Shown here piece by piece: positions 3,942-10,761 of a stretch of DNA of 64,000 nucleotides. Made by a program: the position numbers and the translations under genes. This DNA comes from Candidatus Heimdallarchaeota archaeon. Lineage in GTDB: Archaea; Asgardarchaeota; Heimdallarchaeia; JABLTI01. The stretch spans positions 96,001-160,000 of the forward strand of contig DXJV01000084.1 of assembly GCA_019056785.1 (NCBI GenBank). Reading direction: 5' to 3'. Numbering within the stretch: the stretch's first letter is position 1; each line of letters starts with the position of its first letter. A model generated the notes under the pieces. That model saw only the letters and a program-made list of their open reading frames with translations. It was not told the origin of the DNA and ran no database searches.

Positions 3942-5288
3942 ATGGACTTGAAAAAACAGCTTATGTTGGAAGTAGCTCAACGAATTTTAGCAGAGAAAAT
4001 TCTATGTGACCATTGCTTGGGTCGACAATTTGCGCTGCTTGGATATGGGCTAAGTAACAAGAAAAGAGGAGAGATAATAAAAAACGCCCTCGTTTTACAA
4101 TTAATTGACAAACTGGCTGAAAATGAAACAAACCTTCGAGTACTTACAAACATAGCCCTTTCTGGGAATCGCTTAGCGAGAGAATCACTTGAACGGAAAA
4201 ATCAACCTGTGCCGGAGAGAAAGGAGAATTGCACGATCTGTAAAGACCTTTTCACAAAACTTGATTTTTATACGAAGAAAGTCTTGGACAAACTTGAAGG
4301 GGAAGAATATACCACTTTTTTAGTGGGAGCAAAAATAACTCCAGAATTAATGGAACGTGAAGATAACCTCCGTGCAAAATATCAGATCACTACTGGAGAA
4401 AGTATTAAATCTGAGTTCACGAGAGAGCTTGGTAAAAGGATTATGAGTGTGACAGGCAAAGAGCCAAATTTCGATCAGCCCGAAATAACAATTCTTGTTG
4501 ATCTACAACAGGAGAAAATCACTCTCCAACGACGCTCTCTCTTTATTTATGGTCGATATAACAAGTACATCAGAACTATCCCCCAAACAAAATGGCCTTG
4601 TTATGAATGTAATGGGAAAGGATGTAAAAGTTGTAATTTTACAGGCAAGAGATATCAAGAGAGTGTGGAAGAGCTTATTGCTGCACCTGTCTTAAAGATA
4701 ACAAAGGGGACATGCACACGGTTTCATGGTGCAGGACGAGAGGATATAGATGCGTTAATGCTGGGTTCAGGCAGGCCCTTTATCCTTGAAATTAGAGAAC
4801 CAAAAGTTAGAACTATTGACTTGAAGAAAATTGAAAGAGTAATAAATCGAAAAGCAAGAAAAAAAGTGGCGGTGTCACGATTGGCATTTTCATCTAAAAA
4901 ACAGGTTCAAACTCTGAAACAACAAGCCGAACAGAGTCAGAAAACTTACCGGGCAAAAATTGAACTTGAAAAGCCAAAAACACCCAACGAAATCCGACAA
5001 GTAGTCGAAACCCTCAAAAATGCTGTAATAGAGCAAGCCACACCCTCTCGCGTGCTTCATCGAAGAGCCAATTTAAACCGGAGAAAAAAAGTCTTTGATA
5101 TTACGATCAAACAACTGGATCCAATACACCTCCTTGCTGAAATTACCGGGCAAGGAGGATTATATATCAAAGAATTAATTTCAGGAGACGGAGGGCGAAC
5201 AAAACCAAGTTTCTCGAGTATTTTAGAGTGTGAAGCACGCTGCACTGAATTAGATGTGATTAAAATACATTACAAGGATTTCAAGTAA
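3942..5288 (+). CDS. pus10: tRNA pseudouridine(54/55) synthase Pus10
   Basis: CDHCLGRQF, GRYNK..R.IPQTKW, FHGAGREDIDALMLGSGRPF, GLYIKELISGDGGRTKPS. Confidence 0.95.
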   Translation: MDLKKQLMLEVAQRILAEKILCDHCLGRQFALLGYGLSNKKRGEIIKNALVLQLIDKLAENETNLRVLTNIALSGNRLARESLERKNQPVPERKENCTICKDLFTKLDFYTKKVLDKLEGEEYTTFLVGAKITPELMEREDNLRAKYQITTGESIKSEFTRELGKRIMSVTGKEPNFDQPEITILVDLQQEKITLQRRSLFIYGRYNKYIRTIPQTKWPCYECNGKGCKSCNFTGKRYQESVEELIAAPVLKITKGTCTRFHGAGREDIDALMLGSGRPFILEIREPKVRTIDLKKIERVINRKARKKVAVSRLAFSSKKQVQTLKQQAEQSQKTYRAKIELEKPKTPNEIRQVVETLKNAVIEQATPSRVLHRRANLNRRKKVFDITIKQLDPIHLLAEITGQGGLYIKELISGDGGRTKPSFSSILECEARCTELDVIKIHYKDFK

Positions 5289-5300
5289 GAAATTCGTCAC

Positions 5301-5774
5301 TTACAACCATTCTTCTATAAGTGTTGTATATTGTTCATCTGCTACGATTATTTCCTCGAATTTTCCAGAAAGCTCGGCCAATTCTCGAGCTAACAAGTGA
5401 TAACATGAAGGGATAACTCGCTTCATTATTGATGAAAAAAGAAAATCTTTGCAAGAGCAAAAAGAATGTTCTAAAGTGAGGTACGCATGCTCGTGCCCCT
5501 CCACCACCCAACGAGATACACCTGAAGGAGTAAAGAGGTATTTCTTCACCTTCTTTGCACCAATTAGCTCTAATGCTTTTTTTACCCGCTCACCAAAAGT
5601 TTCCTCGAGTTGCTCGATGTCTTGTACACTTAGTTTTTTTCCTTCGGCAATAAAAGTGAGAATCCTTGGATAAATCTCAAATGCTTTTTGGGATTTTTTT
5701 GAATGGTTTTCTGGTAAAGTGGATTTTATTGTTTCTTTCGCCACGATGCAGTTTGCTCCTAAATACAAGTGCAT
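5301..5774 (-). CDS. SWIM zinc-finger protein
   Basis: FCSCKDF...PSCYHLLA (CxC...CxH); start uncertain. Confidence 0.75.
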   Translation of the reverse strand: MHLYLGANCIVAKETIKSTLPENHSKKSQKAFEIYPRILTFIAEGKKLSVQDIEQLEETFGERVKKALELIGAKKVKKYLFTPSGVSRWVVEGHEHAYLTLEHSFCSCKDFLFSSIMKRVIPSCYHLLARELAELSGKFEEIIVADEQYTTLIEEWL

Positions 5775-5801
5775 TTGTATTTTATTTTAAATCTTCTCTT
5801 T

Positions 5802-6632
5802 TTATTTAGCAGTTCTTTTTTTCTGATTTTCAATGGCCTCTTCCAAAGTTAATACCCCCTTTGCCACTTTGATGGCCTGATCTTTTGAAATAGTTACTTT
5901 ACCTCGCGAATATTGTCTTGATAAAACCTGAATTTCTTTCAATTCACCTTCCGAAGGCTCCCATTGTTCCTGTGACTTGATGCTTTCTCCCAAACGAAAA
6001 GCAATTTCCATTGCAGCAGAAGCGTCTTTTCCAGCGATTAACTTTTGTCCTTCTCGACTACTATTCAGTATGCCTTCACGAGCATCCTGACAACTGGTGG
6101 GTGTTGTTTGAAGCTCATCAACGACTTCGATGGAAACGTGAGAAGGCTTATTGTTTAAGAGTTCATTTAAAAGTAGAATACGACGGTAGCCACCTGTTGA
6201 ACCAATCCTGATAATGACCATTTTCGCCGGGTTGTTTTTAATTGTTAAAAAAATATAATCAATTGCTTCATTTATTTCTCGAGTCTCTAATACACCCCGT
6301 AAACAACCATCGGTAATAATCGCTACTCCAATGGTTCGCCCAGGGTCAACGCCAATTATTAAGGACTCCCAAATTCTTTTGCCTTCTAACCCTAATAATA
6401 CCTTTGTGATAGCCTTTGAGATGTTCATAACTTCAGATCGAGACAAAACAACCAATTTTTCATAAGTCAGTGTGTTATTTTTGAATTCTTCTTCTGTAGT
6501 AACGACGAGTACAGAATTTCGAGCAGCAGGTTTTCCGGGAACAATCTGTTCAGTTGCAATCCCCCTTAAAGCTAATTTTTCTTGAAGGAGGAAACTCAAA
6601 CGAAAATCCATGGTTGCAAGGGAAACAAGCAT
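5802..6632 (-). CDS. RNase H-like (YqgF/RuvC-like) fold protein
   Basis: IIGVDPGRTIGVAI, VVDE..TT and DASAA motifs. Confidence 0.65.
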   Translation of the reverse strand: MLVSLATMDFRLSFLLQEKLALRGIATEQIVPGKPAARNSVLVVTTEEEFKNNTLTYEKLVVLSRSEVMNISKAITKVLLGLEGKRIWESLIIGVDPGRTIGVAIITDGCLRGVLETREINEAIDYIFLTIKNNPAKMVIIRIGSTGGYRRILLLNELLNNKPSHVSIEVVDELQTTPTSCQDAREGILNSSREGQKLIAGKDASAAMEIAFRLGESIKSQEQWEPSEGELKEIQVLSRQYSRGKVTISKDQAIKVAKGVLTLEEAIENQKKRTAK

Positions 6633-6789
6633 TATTATCGTTCCTAACTGCTTGGGACTATTATTTTAAAAAATCACTTTCCTATTAATGAACCTTATGT
6701 TTTTAAAGGTAAAAAAGAATAGCATGAAAGAATAATAAGAACAAGCCAAAAATTAGAAAAAGTGAAGGGGTGCTTATATAAGCAGTAGA

Positions 6790-7497
6790 GTGATTCTTAT
6801 GAAATCAATTCATTACCCATTAATAATTGTTAATTTTAAAACCTATACACGAGGGACAGGGCAAAAGGGTTTACAATTGGCTAAAATATGTGATGAGGTT
6901 GCAAGAGAATTTAATGTCTCAATTGTGGTTGCTGTTCAGATGGCCGATATTCGGTGGATCGCTTCTGAAATAGAGATCCCCGTTTTTGCACAGCATGTAG
7001 ATGCCATTTATCCAGGGAGCAACACGGGCCATATTTTACTCGAAACTGTGAAAGAAGCGGGAGCCACAGGAACACTCGTAAATCATAGCGAGCGAAAGAT
7101 TACCCTAAAAGAAATTGCTCTAATCATCCAAAGGGCTAGAGAGAATCACCTGTACACATGTGTTTGTGCAAGCACACCAAAAATTGCAGGAGCAATCGCC
7201 GCTCTGAGTCCGGACAGCTGTGCAACAGAACCGCCAGAATTAATAGGCTCAGGCATCTCAGTAAGCATGGCTCAGCCGGAAGTTATTACTAAAAGTGTTA
7301 AAATAATTGAAAAGTTTAACCCCGCTGTCGCTCCACTCTGTGGTGCGGGAATCACAAACAGCCAAGATGTTGAAAAAGCGCTTGAATTGGGAACGAAAGG
7401 TATCTTAATTGCCTCTGGCGTGGTAAAAGCCACCGATCCTAAAAAAATCCTGGAAAAAATGGCTCAAGTACTGCTTAAATTTCAAGAGAAAAAATGA
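6790..7497 (+). CDS. tpiA: triosephosphate isomerase (archaeal type)
   Basis: VNFKTY, AQHVD, NHSER, EPPELIGSG, LCGAGI, ASGVVKA. Confidence 0.95.
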   Translation: MILMKSIHYPLIIVNFKTYTRGTGQKGLQLAKICDEVAREFNVSIVVAVQMADIRWIASEIEIPVFAQHVDAIYPGSNTGHILLETVKEAGATGTLVNHSERKITLKEIALIIQRARENHLYTCVCASTPKIAGAIAALSPDSCATEPPELIGSGISVSMAQPEVITKSVKIIEKFNPAVAPLCGAGITNSQDVEKALELGTKGILIASGVVKATDPKKILEKMAQVLLKFQEKK

Positions 7498-7535
7498 ACA
7501 ATCGAAAGTTCTTTAAATTTAATTGTGAAAGAAAT

Positions 7536-7568
7536 GTTTTGTGTAAGGGAGTGCACCCTTCACAAAAC
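7536..7568. promoter_or_regulatory. inverted repeat (operator or RNA hairpin) upstream of RHH gene
   Basis: gttttgtg-t-aaggg agtgca ccctt-cacaaaac: 13-bp stem with 1-nt bulge. Confidence 0.4.
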
Positions 7569-7630
7569 TAAAGAATAGAAGAAGTCGATTATTTATTGTC
7601 TTTAATAAATGAAAAAGGACGAGTAGTCAA

Positions 7631-8158
7631 TTGCCAGAAGAAATGCATATTAGTATTCCGAAAAAACTTGCGGACTTTATTGATAAACTAACAAAAGAAG
7701 GCTACTTCAAGTCACGTGAAGACTTTGCTCGCTGTTCTCTCGAGATAATGGCAGAACTCTATGGACTTTCAACCACAGCAAAAGGAGGAAAGTCCCTTCT
7801 TGACATCTTACGAGACAACGAGCATGTTCCAATTAAAACAGCAACGGCAACAACAACACGCTCTGGACAAGCTAAAACTCTAAGGGAACCCTCACAAACT
7901 TCAAGCAAAAAACCGGTGGTAGCTGGGGGGGAATTGTCACCTGTAGAATATGATATTTTAGACTTGTTCTCTGGAGCAACATTTGAATTTGAAGATGCAC
8001 TCCATGCAAGATACACAATGGAGTTAATGAAACAAGCAAAACCACCGTTACCAAAAGAAGAATTTATCAAGGCGTTAGAAAAACTCGCATCCAAGAAGAA
8101 AATTGAACGTACAGAACACAAAGGAAAGACTATTTGGAAAGTTATTGATCCCTACTAG
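7631..8158 (+). CDS. ribbon-helix-helix plus C-terminal winged-helix DNA-binding protein
   Basis: HISIPKKLADFIDKLTKEGYFKSREDFAR (RHH); C-terminal LEKLASKKKIERTE..W (wHTH). Confidence 0.65.
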   Translation: MPEEMHISIPKKLADFIDKLTKEGYFKSREDFARCSLEIMAELYGLSTTAKGGKSLLDILRDNEHVPIKTATATTTRSGQAKTLREPSQTSSKKPVVAGGELSPVEYDILDLFSGATFEFEDALHARYTMELMKQAKPPLPKEEFIKALEKLASKKKIERTEHKGKTIWKVIDPY

Positions 8159-8165
8159 AAATTTC

Positions 8166-8615
8166 TCAGCAAACTTCCAATACAGTTATTGTAATGCCTG
8201 AGACGCCTTCGATTGAAGAAAGTTCTTTCTTTAAATCTTCGATGTTGATTTTTTTGAATTCTGTGGCTTCGATATAACCATCGAAAACACATTTTTCTTC
8301 AACAAAACAAATACCTGTGGAATAAAGCGCTTTTAATCCGAGCTTCAAAAAGAGATTCCCAATTTGCCTTAAGAAATCACTTGATAATTGCCCGATATCG
8401 ACTGCTAATTTGTATACTTTATTGGATGAAGTTGGAATTATTCGAATGATTTTATTATTTGTTGTCAAAATAACAACAGCATACTCTTCCACAACGGCCT
8501 GTAATGCTTCTTGAAAAGAACTCGGAAGCTCGACTGATTTTTCATGGTCAAGTTTTAATACTTCAGCAATAGTTATTTGAGGGATGTTAGTCTTTTTTTC
8601 TGCCATATTCTCCAC
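8166..8615 (-). CDS. hypothetical protein, ACT-like domain with Cys pair
   Basis: YSTGICFVEEKCVFDGYIE...LSSIEGVSGI; similar to 2375..2788. Confidence 0.6.
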   Translation of the reverse strand: MENMAEKKTNIPQITIAEVLKLDHEKSVELPSSFQEALQAVVEEYAVVILTTNNKIIRIIPTSSNKVYKLAVDIGQLSSDFLRQIGNLFLKLGLKALYSTGICFVEEKCVFDGYIEATEFKKINIEDLKKELSSIEGVSGITITVLEVC

Positions 8616-8724
8616 TTCTATCTACTCTACTAATATAATAAAAGAATTATTTACATTAAATAACTATAAAGAAATCTCATAATTAAATAATTCCGTCAAT
8701 AAAAGGTTAAAAATATGCGAAAAA

Positions 8725-9708
8725 TCACACGGTAGTCACGGAATTTGCCAAGATCTTTGGTGGCCCAGCCACTTTATAAGGATGAAAAGACCAACCTTTT
8801 GTCTGCAATTCTTTTGCAACCTGCCCAGCAAACTCAACCGTGGTTGCTACAGTAATAAGATTGCCCCCACCGATGAGATAATAAGCCATAATTCCTCTCT
8901 CTCGCATAACTTCTAACTGATGACAAAGACGCATCATTTCACGTTTTCGGACGAAAAGATTTACTCCCTCGAGTAACTCATGAGCATTTCTGATGTTTTC
9001 TTCAGCAAGAGTGAGCATTGTAATAAAGTCTCTTTTTCGTGCAGCAGAGACAATTTTAGACACCCAATCAGGGATTCTTTTAACTCTCTTCGGAAAGTTT
9101 GGATTGGTTACAATGCCCGCATGAATCTCATCAGCTGATAAGCGAGAAGGGTAATGGAAAGGAACAGAAAATAACTTTATGGCTTCCAGCTCCTCAGCAG
9201 AAGCTATTTGTTCAACTGTTAAAGGGCGAGAGTGAACTTTGGTCAAGGTTAAGCCCCCAAACAAACTCCTCCCGGCACTTTCAGAACCTTTCATAGCGTG
9301 AAGTAAGAGCTTTTCTTTTGGGTAATGTAAATCGAGAGCAGCATTTAAGCCAGTATAAAGTGCTGCTAAGCCAGAATCGGAGCTGCCACTGAAAATGTCA
9401 ATGTTTTTTGACTGAATGATAAGATCGCCAGTGTGCTGACTTTTTGCGACAAACTTCTTAATGGAATCGACAATTTGCCTCCCTCGAAGGCCCGTGATTT
9501 CGGTTCCGTTTAAAAAGAATTTTACAGTCGTACCCTTTGATGTGGGTGTGAAATGGATTGTGGTCTCAGTTCTGGTAGTTTCATTGGGCGTTGTCACAGC
9601 CAGGCCCATTGTATCATATAAAGGTGTTCGATCAGAATTAATGCCTCCGAGAAATACAATTGGGATTGTAGGATAAGCAACAGTTGTTACTACACTGGTT
9701 TTCGTCAC
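8725..9708 (-). CDS. mevalonate 3-kinase (Thermoplasma Ta1305 type; GHMP/DMD family)
   Basis: AYPTIPIVFLGG..RTPL, SGSSDSG, SESAGRSLFGGLT, LIGGGN lacking the decarboxylase Asp. Confidence 0.8.
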   Translation of the reverse strand: MTKTSVVTTVAYPTIPIVFLGGINSDRTPLYDTMGLAVTTPNETTRTETTIHFTPTSKGTTVKFFLNGTEITGLRGRQIVDSIKKFVAKSQHTGDLIIQSKNIDIFSGSSDSGLAALYTGLNAALDLHYPKEKLLLHAMKGSESAGRSLFGGLTLTKVHSRPLTVEQIASAEELEAIKLFSVPFHYPSRLSADEIHAGIVTNPNFPKRVKRIPDWVSKIVSAARKRDFITMLTLAEENIRNAHELLEGVNLFVRKREMMRLCHQLEVMRERGIMAYYLIGGGNLITVATTVEFAGQVAKELQTKGWSFHPYKVAGPPKILANSVTTV

Positions 9709-9710
9709 TA

Positions 9711-10589
9711 CTAGTCACCTCGTTCTTTCTTAATTGCTTCAAGCAAATTGATCTTTGTGTTGATATTTTTACGGGTATTTAATTCACTGATTCTCTGAAT
9801 AATAATAGAAAGAATATCATCAAAAGCAGCCTCGAGATTGTCAACATTTATAACAGGGAGATTAAAACGGCGAGCATCTTTCTCTATATATTCCTGAATG
9901 ATCAAATACTGCTCTTGTTGAGCCAATAAGCGATCACCGGCACTTCGTAAGTGAGAAAAATATTCACGTTTAATAATTCTTTCATTGTATTTAGTTAAAT
10001 CAGTTATAACGAGCAGCAAGGGAATAATGCTTGGGTGAGTTAAAATATTTTTATCAAATTGCGAAGGATGAAAATGCAAATACTCTACGATCATACTTTC
10101 GCCATCTCGCAAGCCACGGTCCGTTATAACGCGTTGAACAGCTTTGTTCATGATCAATGATTGGGCCTGATATCCTTTGATGATCGTCACTTTTCTTTTT
10201 TCGCCGAAAATTTTCCAGGTGTTATATACGCTGGTGAAAAAGGCCTCATTTCCTTCCCGGGGGAGGATAGTACGAAGGGAAGATCTAAGAGCATCACCGC
10301 CCAAGACAATGCCAATATTAAGAGCTGCGGATAATTCCTTGGCAATTGTGGTTTTACCTACGCCTGGAATACCAGAGATAATAATAATAATTGGGAGTTT
10401 CTGTTGCCCACTTTTTACAAGAGAGTAATAGTCGGCAATAGTTCGATAGCGGAAAAAGTATTTCTCTCCATGCTGTAATAGCTTTTCCTCGAGTTCTTCT
10501 TCTGACCGAGAACCGTCGATGATGGAACTTATTGTACGTAAAGATAACCCTGTAGCAAGTAATGATGACAATTTATCCCAGAAGATCAT
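9711..10589 (-). CDS. mevalonate-3-phosphate 5-kinase (2-phosphoglycerate kinase family, Ta0762 type)
   Basis: GIPGVGKT P-loop, IVLGGD, SVYNTW, IIKGY, FHP, SH..S.G.RL; 2 bp from the M3K gene. Confidence 0.72.
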   Translation of the reverse strand: MIFWDKLSSLLATGLSLRTISSIIDGSRSEEELEEKLLQHGEKYFFRYRTIADYYSLVKSGQQKLPIIIIISGIPGVGKTTIAKELSAALNIGIVLGGDALRSSLRTILPREGNEAFFTSVYNTWKIFGEKRKVTIIKGYQAQSLIMNKAVQRVITDRGLRDGESMIVEYLHFHPSQFDKNILTHPSIIPLLLVITDLTKYNERIIKREYFSHLRSAGDRLLAQQEQYLIIQEYIEKDARRFNLPVINVDNLEAAFDDILSIIIQRISELNTRKNINTKINLLEAIKKERGD

Positions 10590-10761
10590 GCTAGGTCCTC
10601 AACCAATAATTCATTGCTCTGTTGTCATTTGTACCTTTCAAGATATTAATCTTAACCTTATTTTTCATTAAAAGAGGAAGATTTTTAATTGGGAAACTTT
10701 GGAAAAGAAGCTAGAAAATACAAATCATTTATGAAATTGTTGGTTTAATTAAGAGGAATGA

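What the first reader, a model, noticed from the sequence alone, without database searches (positions are those of the whole stretch)
8725..10589. Thermoplasma-type mevalonate pathway operon (M3P5K-M3K) in an apparent Asgard genome
Seen: two same-strand genes 2 bp apart. 8725..9708 has AYPTI..LGG..RTPL, SGSSD.G, SESAGRSLFGGLT and LIGGGN, without the catalytic Asp of the DMD DAGPN motif. 9711..10589 has GIPGVGKT, IVLxGD, SVYxxW, KGY, FHP and SH..S.G.RL. Known (recalled sequences): these are hallmarks of T. acidophilum mevalonate 3-kinase (Ta1305) and mevalonate-3-phosphate 5-kinase (Ta0762, 2-PGK-like), a route characterised in Thermoplasmatales. Inference: this archaeon makes isoprenoids via mevalonate-3,5-bisphosphate. 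The adjacency of the two genes supports both calls and bears on MVA pathway evolution near the eukaryotic root.
Basis: partly seen in the sequence, partly recalled or inferred. Interest (0 to 1): 0.8.

Follow-up and report, generated by a model that had tools for sequence, protein, structure and literature searches.

The report
Mevalonate-3-kinase gene pair, Heimdall archaeon
A Heimdall-group Asgard archaeon carries, as a coupled operon, true relatives of the first two enzymes of the "Thermoplasma-type" mevalonate pathway but not its last two, so the pair probably feeds a eukaryote-style decarboxylase in an untested hybrid route; the presence of these genes in this lineage was published in 2024.

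Summary
Two minus-strand genes lie 2 bp apart: 9711-10589 (upstream) and 8725-9708 (downstream). They encode a 2PGK-like P-loop kinase and a DMD-fold protein without the catalytic Asp. By motifs, PDB match (Ta1305, E 3e-32) and trees they fall inside the M3P5K and M3K clades, not with 2PGK or decarboxylases.

The inference of a Thermoplasma-type pathway is only half supported. This genome and all kin of its family (0 of 12) lack IPK, and no MBD was found. They carry a canonical-looking DMD with diphosphate-type determinants and an MVK-like kinase, and no recognisable PMK.

In DPANN archaea the same four genes form one operon (M3K-M3P5K-DMD-MVK). Close relatives there carry M3K-M3P5K-MBD-IPK instead. 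Within Heimdallarchaeia the pair occurs only in one genus-level group, nested among DPANN sequences.

Most likely the pair makes 3-phosphorylated mevalonate that reaches IPP through DMD, with one kinase supplying the missing PMK step. The order of steps is inferred, not shown.

Zhu et al. 2024 (PMC11052028) already list M3K and M3P5K with DMD, and without IPK or MBD, in this order (JABLTI01). This scan also reached the same reading on another genome. It is a moderately interesting, assay-ready lead.

The parts
9711..10589 (-). M3P5K-like P-loop kinase (292 aa), first gene of the pair. It has an N-terminal helical extension of about 65 aa that Thermoplasmatales M3P5K lacks.
   Evidence: NCBIfam best hit is NF008996 mevalonate-3-phosphate 5-kinase at 133.7 bits (cut-off 250); 2PGK NF003259 scores 123 bits. 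It is single-copy in the genome. It shares the invariant G78, K79, D99, R102, R106, W125, E164, R208, H213 and R220 with Thermoplasmatales M3P5K. It lies in a 45-row clade (SH-aLRT 97) with Thermoplasmatales M3P5K, apart from about 50 other 2PGK-like representatives. The AlphaFold model has pLDDT 95.5 and only generic P-loop kinase neighbours.
8725..9708 (-). M3K-like protein (327 aa, GTG start): DMD-fold GHMP kinase without the catalytic Asp.
   Evidence: PF22700 scores 59 bits and PF21433 M3K_C 51 bits, both over cut-off. NF040848 scores 160 bits (cut-off 440). PDB best hit is 4rkp Ta1305, E 3.3e-32, with the Asp position occupied by Ile. M3K-type motifs replace the DMD YWGK, S-R and Asp motifs (the motif positions are named in PMC4357925). 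The M3K family is monophyletic against decarboxylases (100) and the Heimdall clade has support 99.
9709..9720 (-). Gene junction: 2-nt spacer plus an AGGTGA ribosome-binding-like motif inside the end of the upstream gene.
   Evidence: Read directly from the sequence. In relatives the two genes overlap by 4 nt or abut.
10590..10761 (.). AT-rich divergent intergenic region between the pair and the ribosomal protein S19 gene; presumed promoter region.
   Evidence: Sequence; S19 identified by Pfam. No promoter was tested.
8616..8724 (-). AT-rich spacer with T-runs after the M3K-like stop; probable end of the two-gene transcript.
   Evidence: Sequence. This is inference only.
8166..8615 (-). Conserved 149-aa protein of unknown function, always immediately downstream on the same strand in Heimdall relatives; membership in the unit is uncertain.
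   Evidence: Found at 56-63% identity in the same place in 8 Heimdall loci. No Pfam family passes its cut-off.

Best explanation
The two genes are a translationally coupled operon. It encodes a mevalonate 3-kinase (a DMD-fold enzyme that phosphorylates the 3-OH but cannot decarboxylate) and a mevalonate-3-phosphate 5-kinase-type P-loop kinase.

They belong to a four-gene module together with a canonical diphosphomevalonate decarboxylase and an MVK-like GHMP kinase, both encoded elsewhere in this genome (contig C74). In this Heimdall lineage the module stands in place of the MVK-IPK-based pathway of the rest of the class.

MBD, IPK and any recognisable PMK are missing, and the decarboxylase has diphosphate-type determinants. 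IPP is therefore most likely made by a hybrid route. M3K and M3P5K make mevalonate 3,5-bisphosphate as in Thermoplasma. One kinase (most economically the MVK-derived one) adds the second 5-phosphate. DMD then eliminates the 3-phosphate and CO2 to give IPP directly.

Shown here: family membership, operon structure, gene inventory and phyletic pattern. Inferred: substrates and the order of steps.
For: Identity of the pair:
- (details under parts).

Linkage:
- M3P5K-like and M3K-like are adjacent in about 10 Heimdall loci and about 35 DPANN loci.

Module:
- In DPANN the operon is either M3K-M3P5K-DMD-MVK or M3K-M3P5K-(MBD-like)-IPK.
- Sister pairs keep M3K and M3P5K at 80% and 74% identity while the third gene is swapped (30% identity). 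This argues that the pair does the same chemistry in both settings.

Missing enzymes:
- IPK is absent in 0/12 genomes of the window's family against 64/71 in other families of the class.
- No MBD was found.
- No AcnX, UbiD or IspH was found in the own genome.
- The GHMP inventory shows only MVK-like, DMD, pantoate kinase, two galactokinase-like proteins and an RFAP synthase.

The decarboxylase looks like a DMD:
- TIGR01240 scores 297 bits.
- It has the Lys of YxGK and S-T-R..M, as in E. faecalis MDD, and not the Asn and His of A. thermophila PMD.

Shared history and published support:
- All four module genes of the Heimdall group are nearest to the DPANN operon versions.
- Table S3 of PMC11052028 lists the same inventory for five JABLTI01 genomes.
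Against: - No enzyme of this clade has been assayed.
- The DMD keeps an intact ATP loop (GLASSAS), Ser/Arg and Asp in every member. MBD, which only decarboxylates, lost its ATP residues (PMC5177888). This suggests that DMD still phosphorylates a free 3-OH.
- The GHMP kinase scores as MVK (TIGR00549 204 bits over a cut-off of 163; PDB hits are MVKs), not as PMK.
- The genome is 82.5% complete.
- Both proteins fall below the NCBIfam equivalog cut-offs.
- Two Micrarchaeota with the DMD-MVK operon have a borderline IPK-like gene.
Confidence: 0.5

Rival explanations
1. This is the classical (eukaryote-type) route with a non-orthologous PMK. MVK makes mevalonate 5-phosphate, the M3P5K-like P-loop kinase adds the second phosphate, and DMD does its normal ATP-dependent reaction. 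The M3K-like enzyme would be accessory, for example a regulator, an overflow enzyme or a kinase for another 3-hydroxy acid.
For: MVK and DMD both look canonical, and the DMD has an intact ATP site. PMK is the only step missing. From general knowledge, animal PMK is a P-loop kinase unrelated to the GHMP PMK, so there is precedent.
Against: It leaves the M3K-like gene without a role, although it is strictly co-inherited and translationally coupled. M3P5K-like proteins are 74% identical between operons with and without MVK/DMD. Residues invariant with Thermoplasmatales M3P5K are kept. The fold search did not bring up animal PMK among the top neighbours.
Confidence: 0.2
2. This is the Thermoplasma-type chemistry with substitute enzymes. 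DMD acts as an ATP-independent decarboxylase on mevalonate 3,5-bisphosphate to give isopentenyl phosphate, and a non-orthologous kinase (MVK-like or M3P5K-like) replaces IPK.
For: PMD from Roseiflexus decarboxylates mevalonate 3,5-bisphosphate (PMC5177888 and PMC9254496). The module swap of MBD+IPK for DMD+MVK-like fits a one-for-one replacement.
Against: The decarboxylase carries the DMD-type Lys, Ser-Arg and Met that bind a 5-diphosphate, not the PMD-type Asn and His. No GHMP kinase is known to act as IPK.
Confidence: 0.15
3. This is the first reader's reading: a complete Thermoplasma-type pathway whose MBD and IPK genes were simply not assembled.
For: The genome is 82.5% complete. The main text of PMC11052028 speaks of MBD homologs in Heimdallarchaeia.
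Against: IPK is absent from all 12 genomes of the family and MBD from the own genome. Table S3 of the same paper gives MBD 0 and IPK 0 for all five JABLTI01 genomes. MVK-like and DMD are present instead.
Confidence: 0.03
4. The pair is unrelated to isoprenoid synthesis: a 2-phosphoglycerate kinase plus a kinase for some other hydroxy acid.
For: The NCBIfam 2PGK model scores nearly as high as the M3P5K model (123 vs 134 bits).
Against: The protein lies in the clade with Thermoplasmatales M3P5K. Its gene shares an operon with DMD and MVK, or with MBD and IPK, in DPANN. M3K-specific motifs are present.
Confidence: 0.03

Closest known systems
Mevalonate 3-kinase of Thermoplasma acidophilum (Ta1305; PDB 4RKP/4RKS/4RKZ) and Picrophilus torridus (PTO1356), EC 2.7.1.185
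   Same: Same DMD-like GHMP fold and Pfam M3K_C domain. The catalytic Asp is replaced (Thr in Ta1305, Ile here). M3K-type motifs (PTI..LGG, GSSDxG, SESxGRSxxGGLT) stand where DMD binds the diphosphate. Both lie in one clade against the decarboxylases.
   Different: About 30% identity only, and the score is below the NCBIfam equivalog cut-off. The Heimdall clade sits with DPANN sequences, not next to Thermoplasmatales. The gene is operonic with M3P5K, whereas in Thermoplasmatales M3K stands alone. The samples holding the stretch are labelled marine sediment or hydrothermal vent; their pH was not checked.
Mevalonate-3-phosphate 5-kinase of T. acidophilum (Ta0762), EC 2.7.1.186, a 2-phosphoglycerate-kinase-like P-loop kinase
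   Same: Same Walker A motif and the same invariant Asp, Arg, Trp, Glu and His set. It lies in the same clade, apart from other 2PGK-like proteins.
   Different: It has an extra N-terminal helical domain of about 65 aa, as in 2PGK. It scores 134 bits against 200-264 bits for Thermoplasmatales proteins. No solved structure of the family exists.
Thermoplasma-type mevalonate pathway (M3K, M3P5K, MBD Ta0893, IPK Ta0103)
   Same: The first two enzymes are present as orthologs.
   Different: MBD and IPK are absent. An MVK-like kinase and a canonical DMD are present.
Eukaryote-type (classical) mevalonate pathway (MVK, PMK, DMD), as in Sulfolobales and eukaryotes
   Same: An MVK-like kinase is present, and so is a DMD with diphosphate-type determinants and an intact ATP site. 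There is no IPK.
   Different: No recognisable PMK of either type was found. There are two extra kinases, M3K-like and M3P5K-like.
M3K/M3P5K homologs reported in Heimdallarchaeia order JABLTI01 and in DPANN (Microorganisms 2024, PMC11052028)
   Same: Same lineage: locus L017 comes from the JABLTI01 type assembly, and the tool places the window in the same genus-level group. The inventory in their Table S3 is the same.
   Different: That paper does not describe the operon, the two alternative operon types, or a pathway for the mixed gene set. It calls the DMD-linked kinase PMK in JABLTI01 and MVK in Aenigmatarchaeota.

Membership tests
Mevalonate 3-kinase (M3K, EC 2.7.1.185) | DMD-like GHMP fold with an M3K-type C-terminal domain | tested here: met
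   PF22700 scores 59.1 bits and PF21433 scores 51 bits, both over the cut-off of 27. The PDB best hit is Ta1305, E 3.3e-32.
Mevalonate 3-kinase (M3K, EC 2.7.1.185) | The catalytic Asp of the decarboxylases (SsoDMD D281, S. epidermidis D283) is absent | tested here: met
   The position is Ile in LIGGGN, aligned to Thr of Ta1305 and Asp of PMD/DMD. The role of this Asp is given in PMC9254496.
Mevalonate 3-kinase (M3K, EC 2.7.1.185) | The diphosphate-binding motifs of DMD (YWGK, S192-R193 region) are replaced by M3K-type residues | tested here: met
   FLGGIN, SESAGRS and RLSADEIH match the Thermoplasmatales M3K pattern and not the DMD pattern. The positions are named in PMC4357925.
Mevalonate 3-kinase (M3K, EC 2.7.1.185) | Groups with characterised M3Ks to the exclusion of DMD, PMD and MBD | tested here: met
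   The M3K clade has SH-aLRT 100 against 19 decarboxylase-type proteins. This was a quick search and the tool warned of long branches.
Mevalonate 3-kinase (M3K, EC 2.7.1.185) | NCBIfam equivalog score NF040848 of at least 440 bits | tested here: not met
   160.3 bits. The model is built on Thermoplasmatales.
Mevalonate 3-kinase (M3K, EC 2.7.1.185) | Phosphorylates the 3-OH of (R)-mevalonate without decarboxylation | not testable with these tools
   An enzyme assay is needed.
Mevalonate-3-phosphate 5-kinase (M3P5K, EC 2.7.1.186) | P-loop kinase of the 2PGK-like family that shares the conserved residues of Thermoplasmatales M3P5K | tested here: met
   GIPGVGKT is present, and D99, R102, R106, W125, E164, R208, H213 and R220 are invariant across 37 sequences that include 3 from Thermoplasmatales.
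Mevalonate-3-phosphate 5-kinase (M3P5K, EC 2.7.1.186) | Groups with Thermoplasmatales M3P5K apart from other 2PGK-like proteins | tested here: met
   A 45-row clade with SH-aLRT 97. The outgroup representatives are unnamed.
Mevalonate-3-phosphate 5-kinase (M3P5K, EC 2.7.1.186) | NCBIfam equivalog score NF008996 of at least 250 bits | tested here: not met
   133.7 bits. Only 1 of 4 Thermoplasmatales proteins passes the cut-off.
Mevalonate-3-phosphate 5-kinase (M3P5K, EC 2.7.1.186) | Phosphorylates the 5-OH of mevalonate 3-phosphate | not testable with these tools
   An enzyme assay is needed.
Thermoplasma-type mevalonate pathway | Bisphosphomevalonate decarboxylase (MBD) present | tested here: not met
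   The only NF040847 hit in the genome is the DMD, at 49.8 bits against a cut-off of 560. PF22700 finds only the DMD and the M3K-like protein.
Thermoplasma-type mevalonate pathway | Isopentenyl phosphate kinase present | tested here: not met
   The best NF040647 hit is UMP kinase. No genome of the family has IPK (0/12), against 64/71 in other families of the class. Thermoplasmatales and the MBD-type DPANN genomes all have it.
Thermoplasma-type mevalonate pathway | No mevalonate 5-kinase (MVK) | tested here: not met
   An MVK-like kinase is present on C74: TIGR00549 scores 204 bits over a cut-off of 163, and the PDB hits are MVKs.
Eukaryote-type mevalonate pathway | Diphosphomevalonate decarboxylase present | tested here: met
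   TIGR01240 scores 296.7 bits over a cut-off of 171. The Lys, Ser-Arg, Met, Asp and ATP loop are conserved.
Eukaryote-type mevalonate pathway | Phosphomevalonate kinase present | tested here: inconclusive
   No GHMP-type PMK appears in the PF00288 inventory. PF04275 gave no hit, but its control genomes were also silent. PMC11052028 labels the DMD-linked kinase as PMK.

The most novel reading that the evidence does not exclude
This would be a fifth variant of the mevalonate pathway. Mevalonate is phosphorylated at the 3-OH (M3K) and then at the 5-OH (M3P5K). An MVK-derived kinase adds a second 5-phosphate. A DMD then carries out only the elimination and decarboxylation, giving IPP without PMK or IPK. 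The route would be carried as a mobile four-gene module shared between DPANN archaea and one Heimdall lineage. It would fill the empty cell of a two-by-two scheme: 3-first versus 5-first, and decarboxylate-then-phosphorylate versus phosphorylate-then-decarboxylate.
Probability: 0.35. Interest if true: 0.7.

Novelty: new variant of a known kind. Interest (0 to 1): 0.5.

Why it matters
Four routes from mevalonate to IPP are known. The gene set here (M3K, M3P5K, MVK-like, DMD; no PMK, IPK or MBD) fits none of them, yet the organism needs IPP for its membrane lipids and has no MEP pathway. At least one of these enzymes must therefore do something its family is not known to do.

It also shows that splitting 3-phosphorylation from decarboxylation may not be only an adaptation to acid, as was argued for Thermoplasmatales; this rests on run labels of marine sediment and hydrothermal vent, whose pH was not checked. 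Four soluble enzymes are enough to test the question.

The module is confined to one genus-level group and looks horizontally exchanged with DPANN.

Tried and rejected
- Expression evidence: no RNA holder was listed for the stretch.
- The M3K structure paper (PMC4315659) is not held. Substrate-pocket residues were taken from PMC4357925 instead.
- P-loop (animal-type) PMK, PF04275: no hits in 16 genomes, but the control genomes were silent too, so this says little.
- Fold search with a confident model of the M3P5K-like protein gave only generic P-loop kinases, with query-normalised TM at most 0.43. There is no specific relative and no animal PMK near the top.
- The promoter scan was not run because the tool models sigma-70 promoters, not archaeal ones.
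- Contamination of the contig by DPANN DNA was considered and rejected. Flanking ribosomal and other genes are syntenic in eight or more Heimdall MAGs, and GC content is unremarkable.
- I could not settle whether the DMD-linked kinase is MVK or PMK. HMMs, PDB hits and class-wide BLAST say MVK-like. It nevertheless forms its own clade with the DPANN operon kinases, apart from the MVKs that sit next to IPK. No named PMK references were available for the tree.
- The tidy split between operon types is not perfect. Two Micrarchaeota with the DMD-MVK operon have a borderline IPK-like gene, and one locus (L046) combines a DMD-type gene with an IPK-like gene.
Full report
**Anatomy**

Both genes lie on the minus strand. 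The upstream gene (9711-10589, 292 aa) ends with TAG at 9711-9713. Two bases later the downstream gene (8725-9708, 327 aa) starts with GTG, preceded at 6 nt by AGGTGA. This looks like translational coupling.

Upstream of the pair is a 172-nt AT-rich divergent spacer leading to ribosomal protein S19. Downstream is a 109-nt AT-rich spacer with T-runs, followed by a conserved 149-aa gene of unknown function. GC content is ordinary for the window.

**What the proteins are**

The downstream protein has these properties:
- It passes Pfam MVD-like_N and M3K_C.
- Its best NCBIfam model is mevalonate-3-kinase, at 160 bits, below the equivalog cut-off of 440.
- Its best solved relative is Ta1305, E 3.3e-32, far ahead of any decarboxylase.
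- At the catalytic Asp of the decarboxylases it has Ile, where Ta1305 has Thr. PMC9254496 states that this Asp is conserved in DMD, PMD and MBD but not in M3K, and that replacing it turns a DMD into a 3-kinase.
- The regions that PMC4357925 names as diphosphate-binding in DMD carry M3K-type residues. That paper also shows that Picrophilus M3K takes mevalonate but neither of its 5-phosphates.

In a tree of 67 proteins the M3K family separates from decarboxylase-type proteins with support 100. The Heimdall sequences form one clade (99) inside a clade (99) with DPANN sequences. Thermoplasmatales form a separate clade.

The upstream protein is a P-loop kinase:
- Its best NCBIfam model is mevalonate-3-phosphate 5-kinase (134 bits, cut-off 250), narrowly ahead of 2PGK (123 bits).
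- Against 1.8 billion representatives only 13 proteins score below E 1e-30; a broad 2PGK-like family follows.
- In a 98-row tree, all M3K-linked proteins and the Thermoplasmatales M3P5K fall in one clade (97), apart from the other representatives.
- Eleven residues are invariant across that clade, including the Walker Lys and an Asp-Arg-Arg motif.
- The Heimdall form has an extra N-terminal helical domain.
- A confident model (pLDDT 95.5) has only generic P-loop kinase neighbours.

**Linkage**

A scan of one genome per species returned 80 loci. tblastn and ORF classification show the following arrangements:
- **Heimdall:** M3P5K-like immediately upstream of M3K-like, as in the window, with conserved flanks.
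- **Many DPANN archaea:** the order is M3K, M3P5K, then a third DMD-family gene and a fourth gene.
- **Thermoplasmatales and Altiarchaeota:** M3K stands without M3P5K next to it.

**The rest of the pathway**

The window's genome is 2.87 Mb and 82.5% complete. Its inventory is:
- **Present:** HMG-CoA reductase.
- **Present:** one canonical DMD (TIGR01240 297 bits).
- **Present:** an MVK-like kinase 3 kb from the DMD (TIGR00549 204 bits; PDB hits are mevalonate kinases).
- **Not found:** MBD.
- **Not found:** IPK; the best hit is UMP kinase.
- **Not found:** AcnX, UbiD or IspH.
- **Other GHMP proteins:** pantoate kinase, two galactokinase-like proteins and an RFAP synthase.

The DMD has the Lys of YxGK, a Ser-Thr-Arg..Met stretch that aligns to Ser-Ser-Arg..Met of E. 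faecalis MDD, the ATP loop and the Asp. It does not have the Asn and His of A. thermophila PMD. It therefore looks built for a 5-diphosphate substrate, which fits the lack of IPK.

**Is the absence real?**

Ten further Heimdall genomes that carry the pair all lack IPK. Thermoplasmatales, Altiarchaeota and part of the DPANN genomes have it.

Across 83 genomes of the class:
- The M3K-like gene occurs only in the window's genus-level group, in 11 of 11 genomes.
- IPK is present in 64 of 71 genomes of the other families and in none of the 12 genomes of the window's family.
- The nearest relative of the window's MVK-like kinase in those other genomes is a single gene at 28-37% identity, which in most of the cases compared sits next to IPK.

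Table S3 of PMC11052028 gives the same picture for five JABLTI01 genomes: M3K 1, M3P5K 1, DMD 1, "PMK" 1, MVK 0, IPK 0, MBD 0, AcnX/AMPD 0. Its main text, however, speaks of MBD homologs in this class.

**Two operon types**

In DPANN the genes after M3K-M3P5K come in two forms:
- A DMD that is 46-56% identical to the window's DMD, followed by an MVK-like kinase.
- A longer MBD/PMD-like protein (best NCBIfam model usually bisphosphomevalonate decarboxylase), followed nearby by IPK.

Of the genomes surveyed, those of the first type mostly lack IPK, and those of the second type mostly lack MVK. There are exceptions (locus L046).

On the M3K and M3P5K trees the two types are intermixed. One sister pair keeps M3K at 80% and M3P5K at 74% identity while the third gene is only 30% identical. 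This argues that the pair performs the same two reactions in both settings, and that only the downstream half is exchanged.

The kinases of the DMD-type operons, together with the Heimdall kinases, form their own clade (99), apart from the MVKs that sit next to IPK. All four Heimdall genes are nearest to the DPANN versions. The simplest history is that the set moved as a unit.

**Mechanism**

- **Shown:** family membership, operon structure, inventory and phyletic pattern.
- **Inferred:** the pair makes mevalonate 3-phosphate and then mevalonate 3,5-bisphosphate; a further phosphate is added at C5; DMD eliminates phosphate and CO2 to give IPP.
- **For this model:** it gives every gene a role and needs the fewest changes of function.
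- **Main objection:** the DMD keeps a complete ATP site in all members, whereas MBD lost its ATP residues. In addition, the kinase looks like an MVK.
- **Main rival:** a classical route in which the P-loop kinase is the missing PMK. It explains both objections but leaves the strictly co-inherited M3K-like gene idle.

I put the hybrid route at about 0.5, the classical route with a substitute PMK at 0.2, and a DMD-as-MBD route with a substitute IPK at 0.15.

**Novelty**

The presence of M3K and M3P5K homologs in Heimdallarchaeia JABLTI01 and in DPANN, together with DMD, is published (PMC11052028). That paper calls the combination "mixed" and does not propose a route or describe the operons. No paper found describes an assay of these enzymes. 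An earlier follow-up of this scan on another genome (e1-5394455) reached the same reading.

This window adds a further member of the lineage. The analysis adds the two alternative operon types, the class-wide complementarity with IPK, and the shared history of the four genes. The pathway, if confirmed, would be a new variant of a known kind.

Noticed in passing
window 8166-8615 (-): A 149-aa protein with no Pfam family lies about 110 nt downstream of the M3K-like gene on the same strand. It is conserved at that place (56-63% identity) in 8 Heimdall relatives, which also carry a paralog at 26-30% identity about 6 kb away.
   Followed up: partly
L092 (G000:C74:12000-26000) 4943-9943: In the window's genome the DMD and the MVK-like kinase are separated by two opposite-strand genes (501 and 379 aa). 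In relatives (L101, L102) they abut.
   Followed up: no
L054, L055, L058, L065-L068, L087 (Altiarchaeota): An Asp-less M3K-like gene lies directly beside a bona fide MVK (TIGR00549 230 bits). IPK lies nearby at some loci (L055, L058) and is present in all three genomes tested. No M3P5K was found in the three genomes tested. This is another gene combination that fits no described pathway.
   Followed up: partly
L043 vs L048 (Micrarchaeota; L048 is Ca. Micrarchaeum A_DKE): The M3K genes are 92% identical, the adjacent M3P5K genes only 56%, and the third gene differs in kind (DMD-type versus MBD at 386 bits). This suggests recombination inside the operon, perhaps with the Thermoplasmatales host.
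   Followed up: partly
L020 5739-6763 and L021 7151-7982 (Aenigmatarchaeota): The M3P5K-like gene is read as two consecutive ORFs (200+138 aa and 186+104 aa). This could be a frameshift, an assembly error or a real split.
   Followed up: no
L046 7968-11574: A Micrarchaeota operon has M3K, M3P5K, a DMD-type decarboxylase (TIGR01240 290 bits) and an IPK-like gene, a third combination. Two genomes with the DMD-MVK operon (loci L043, L045) also have a borderline IPK-like gene (119-122 bits).
   Followed up: no
L004 1333-2433 and L005 841-1932 (own genome, contigs C32 and C18): Two GHMP kinases of about 365 aa score between galactokinase and MVK models, all below cut-off. Their substrates are unknown, and homologs are present in all relatives.
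   Followed up: no
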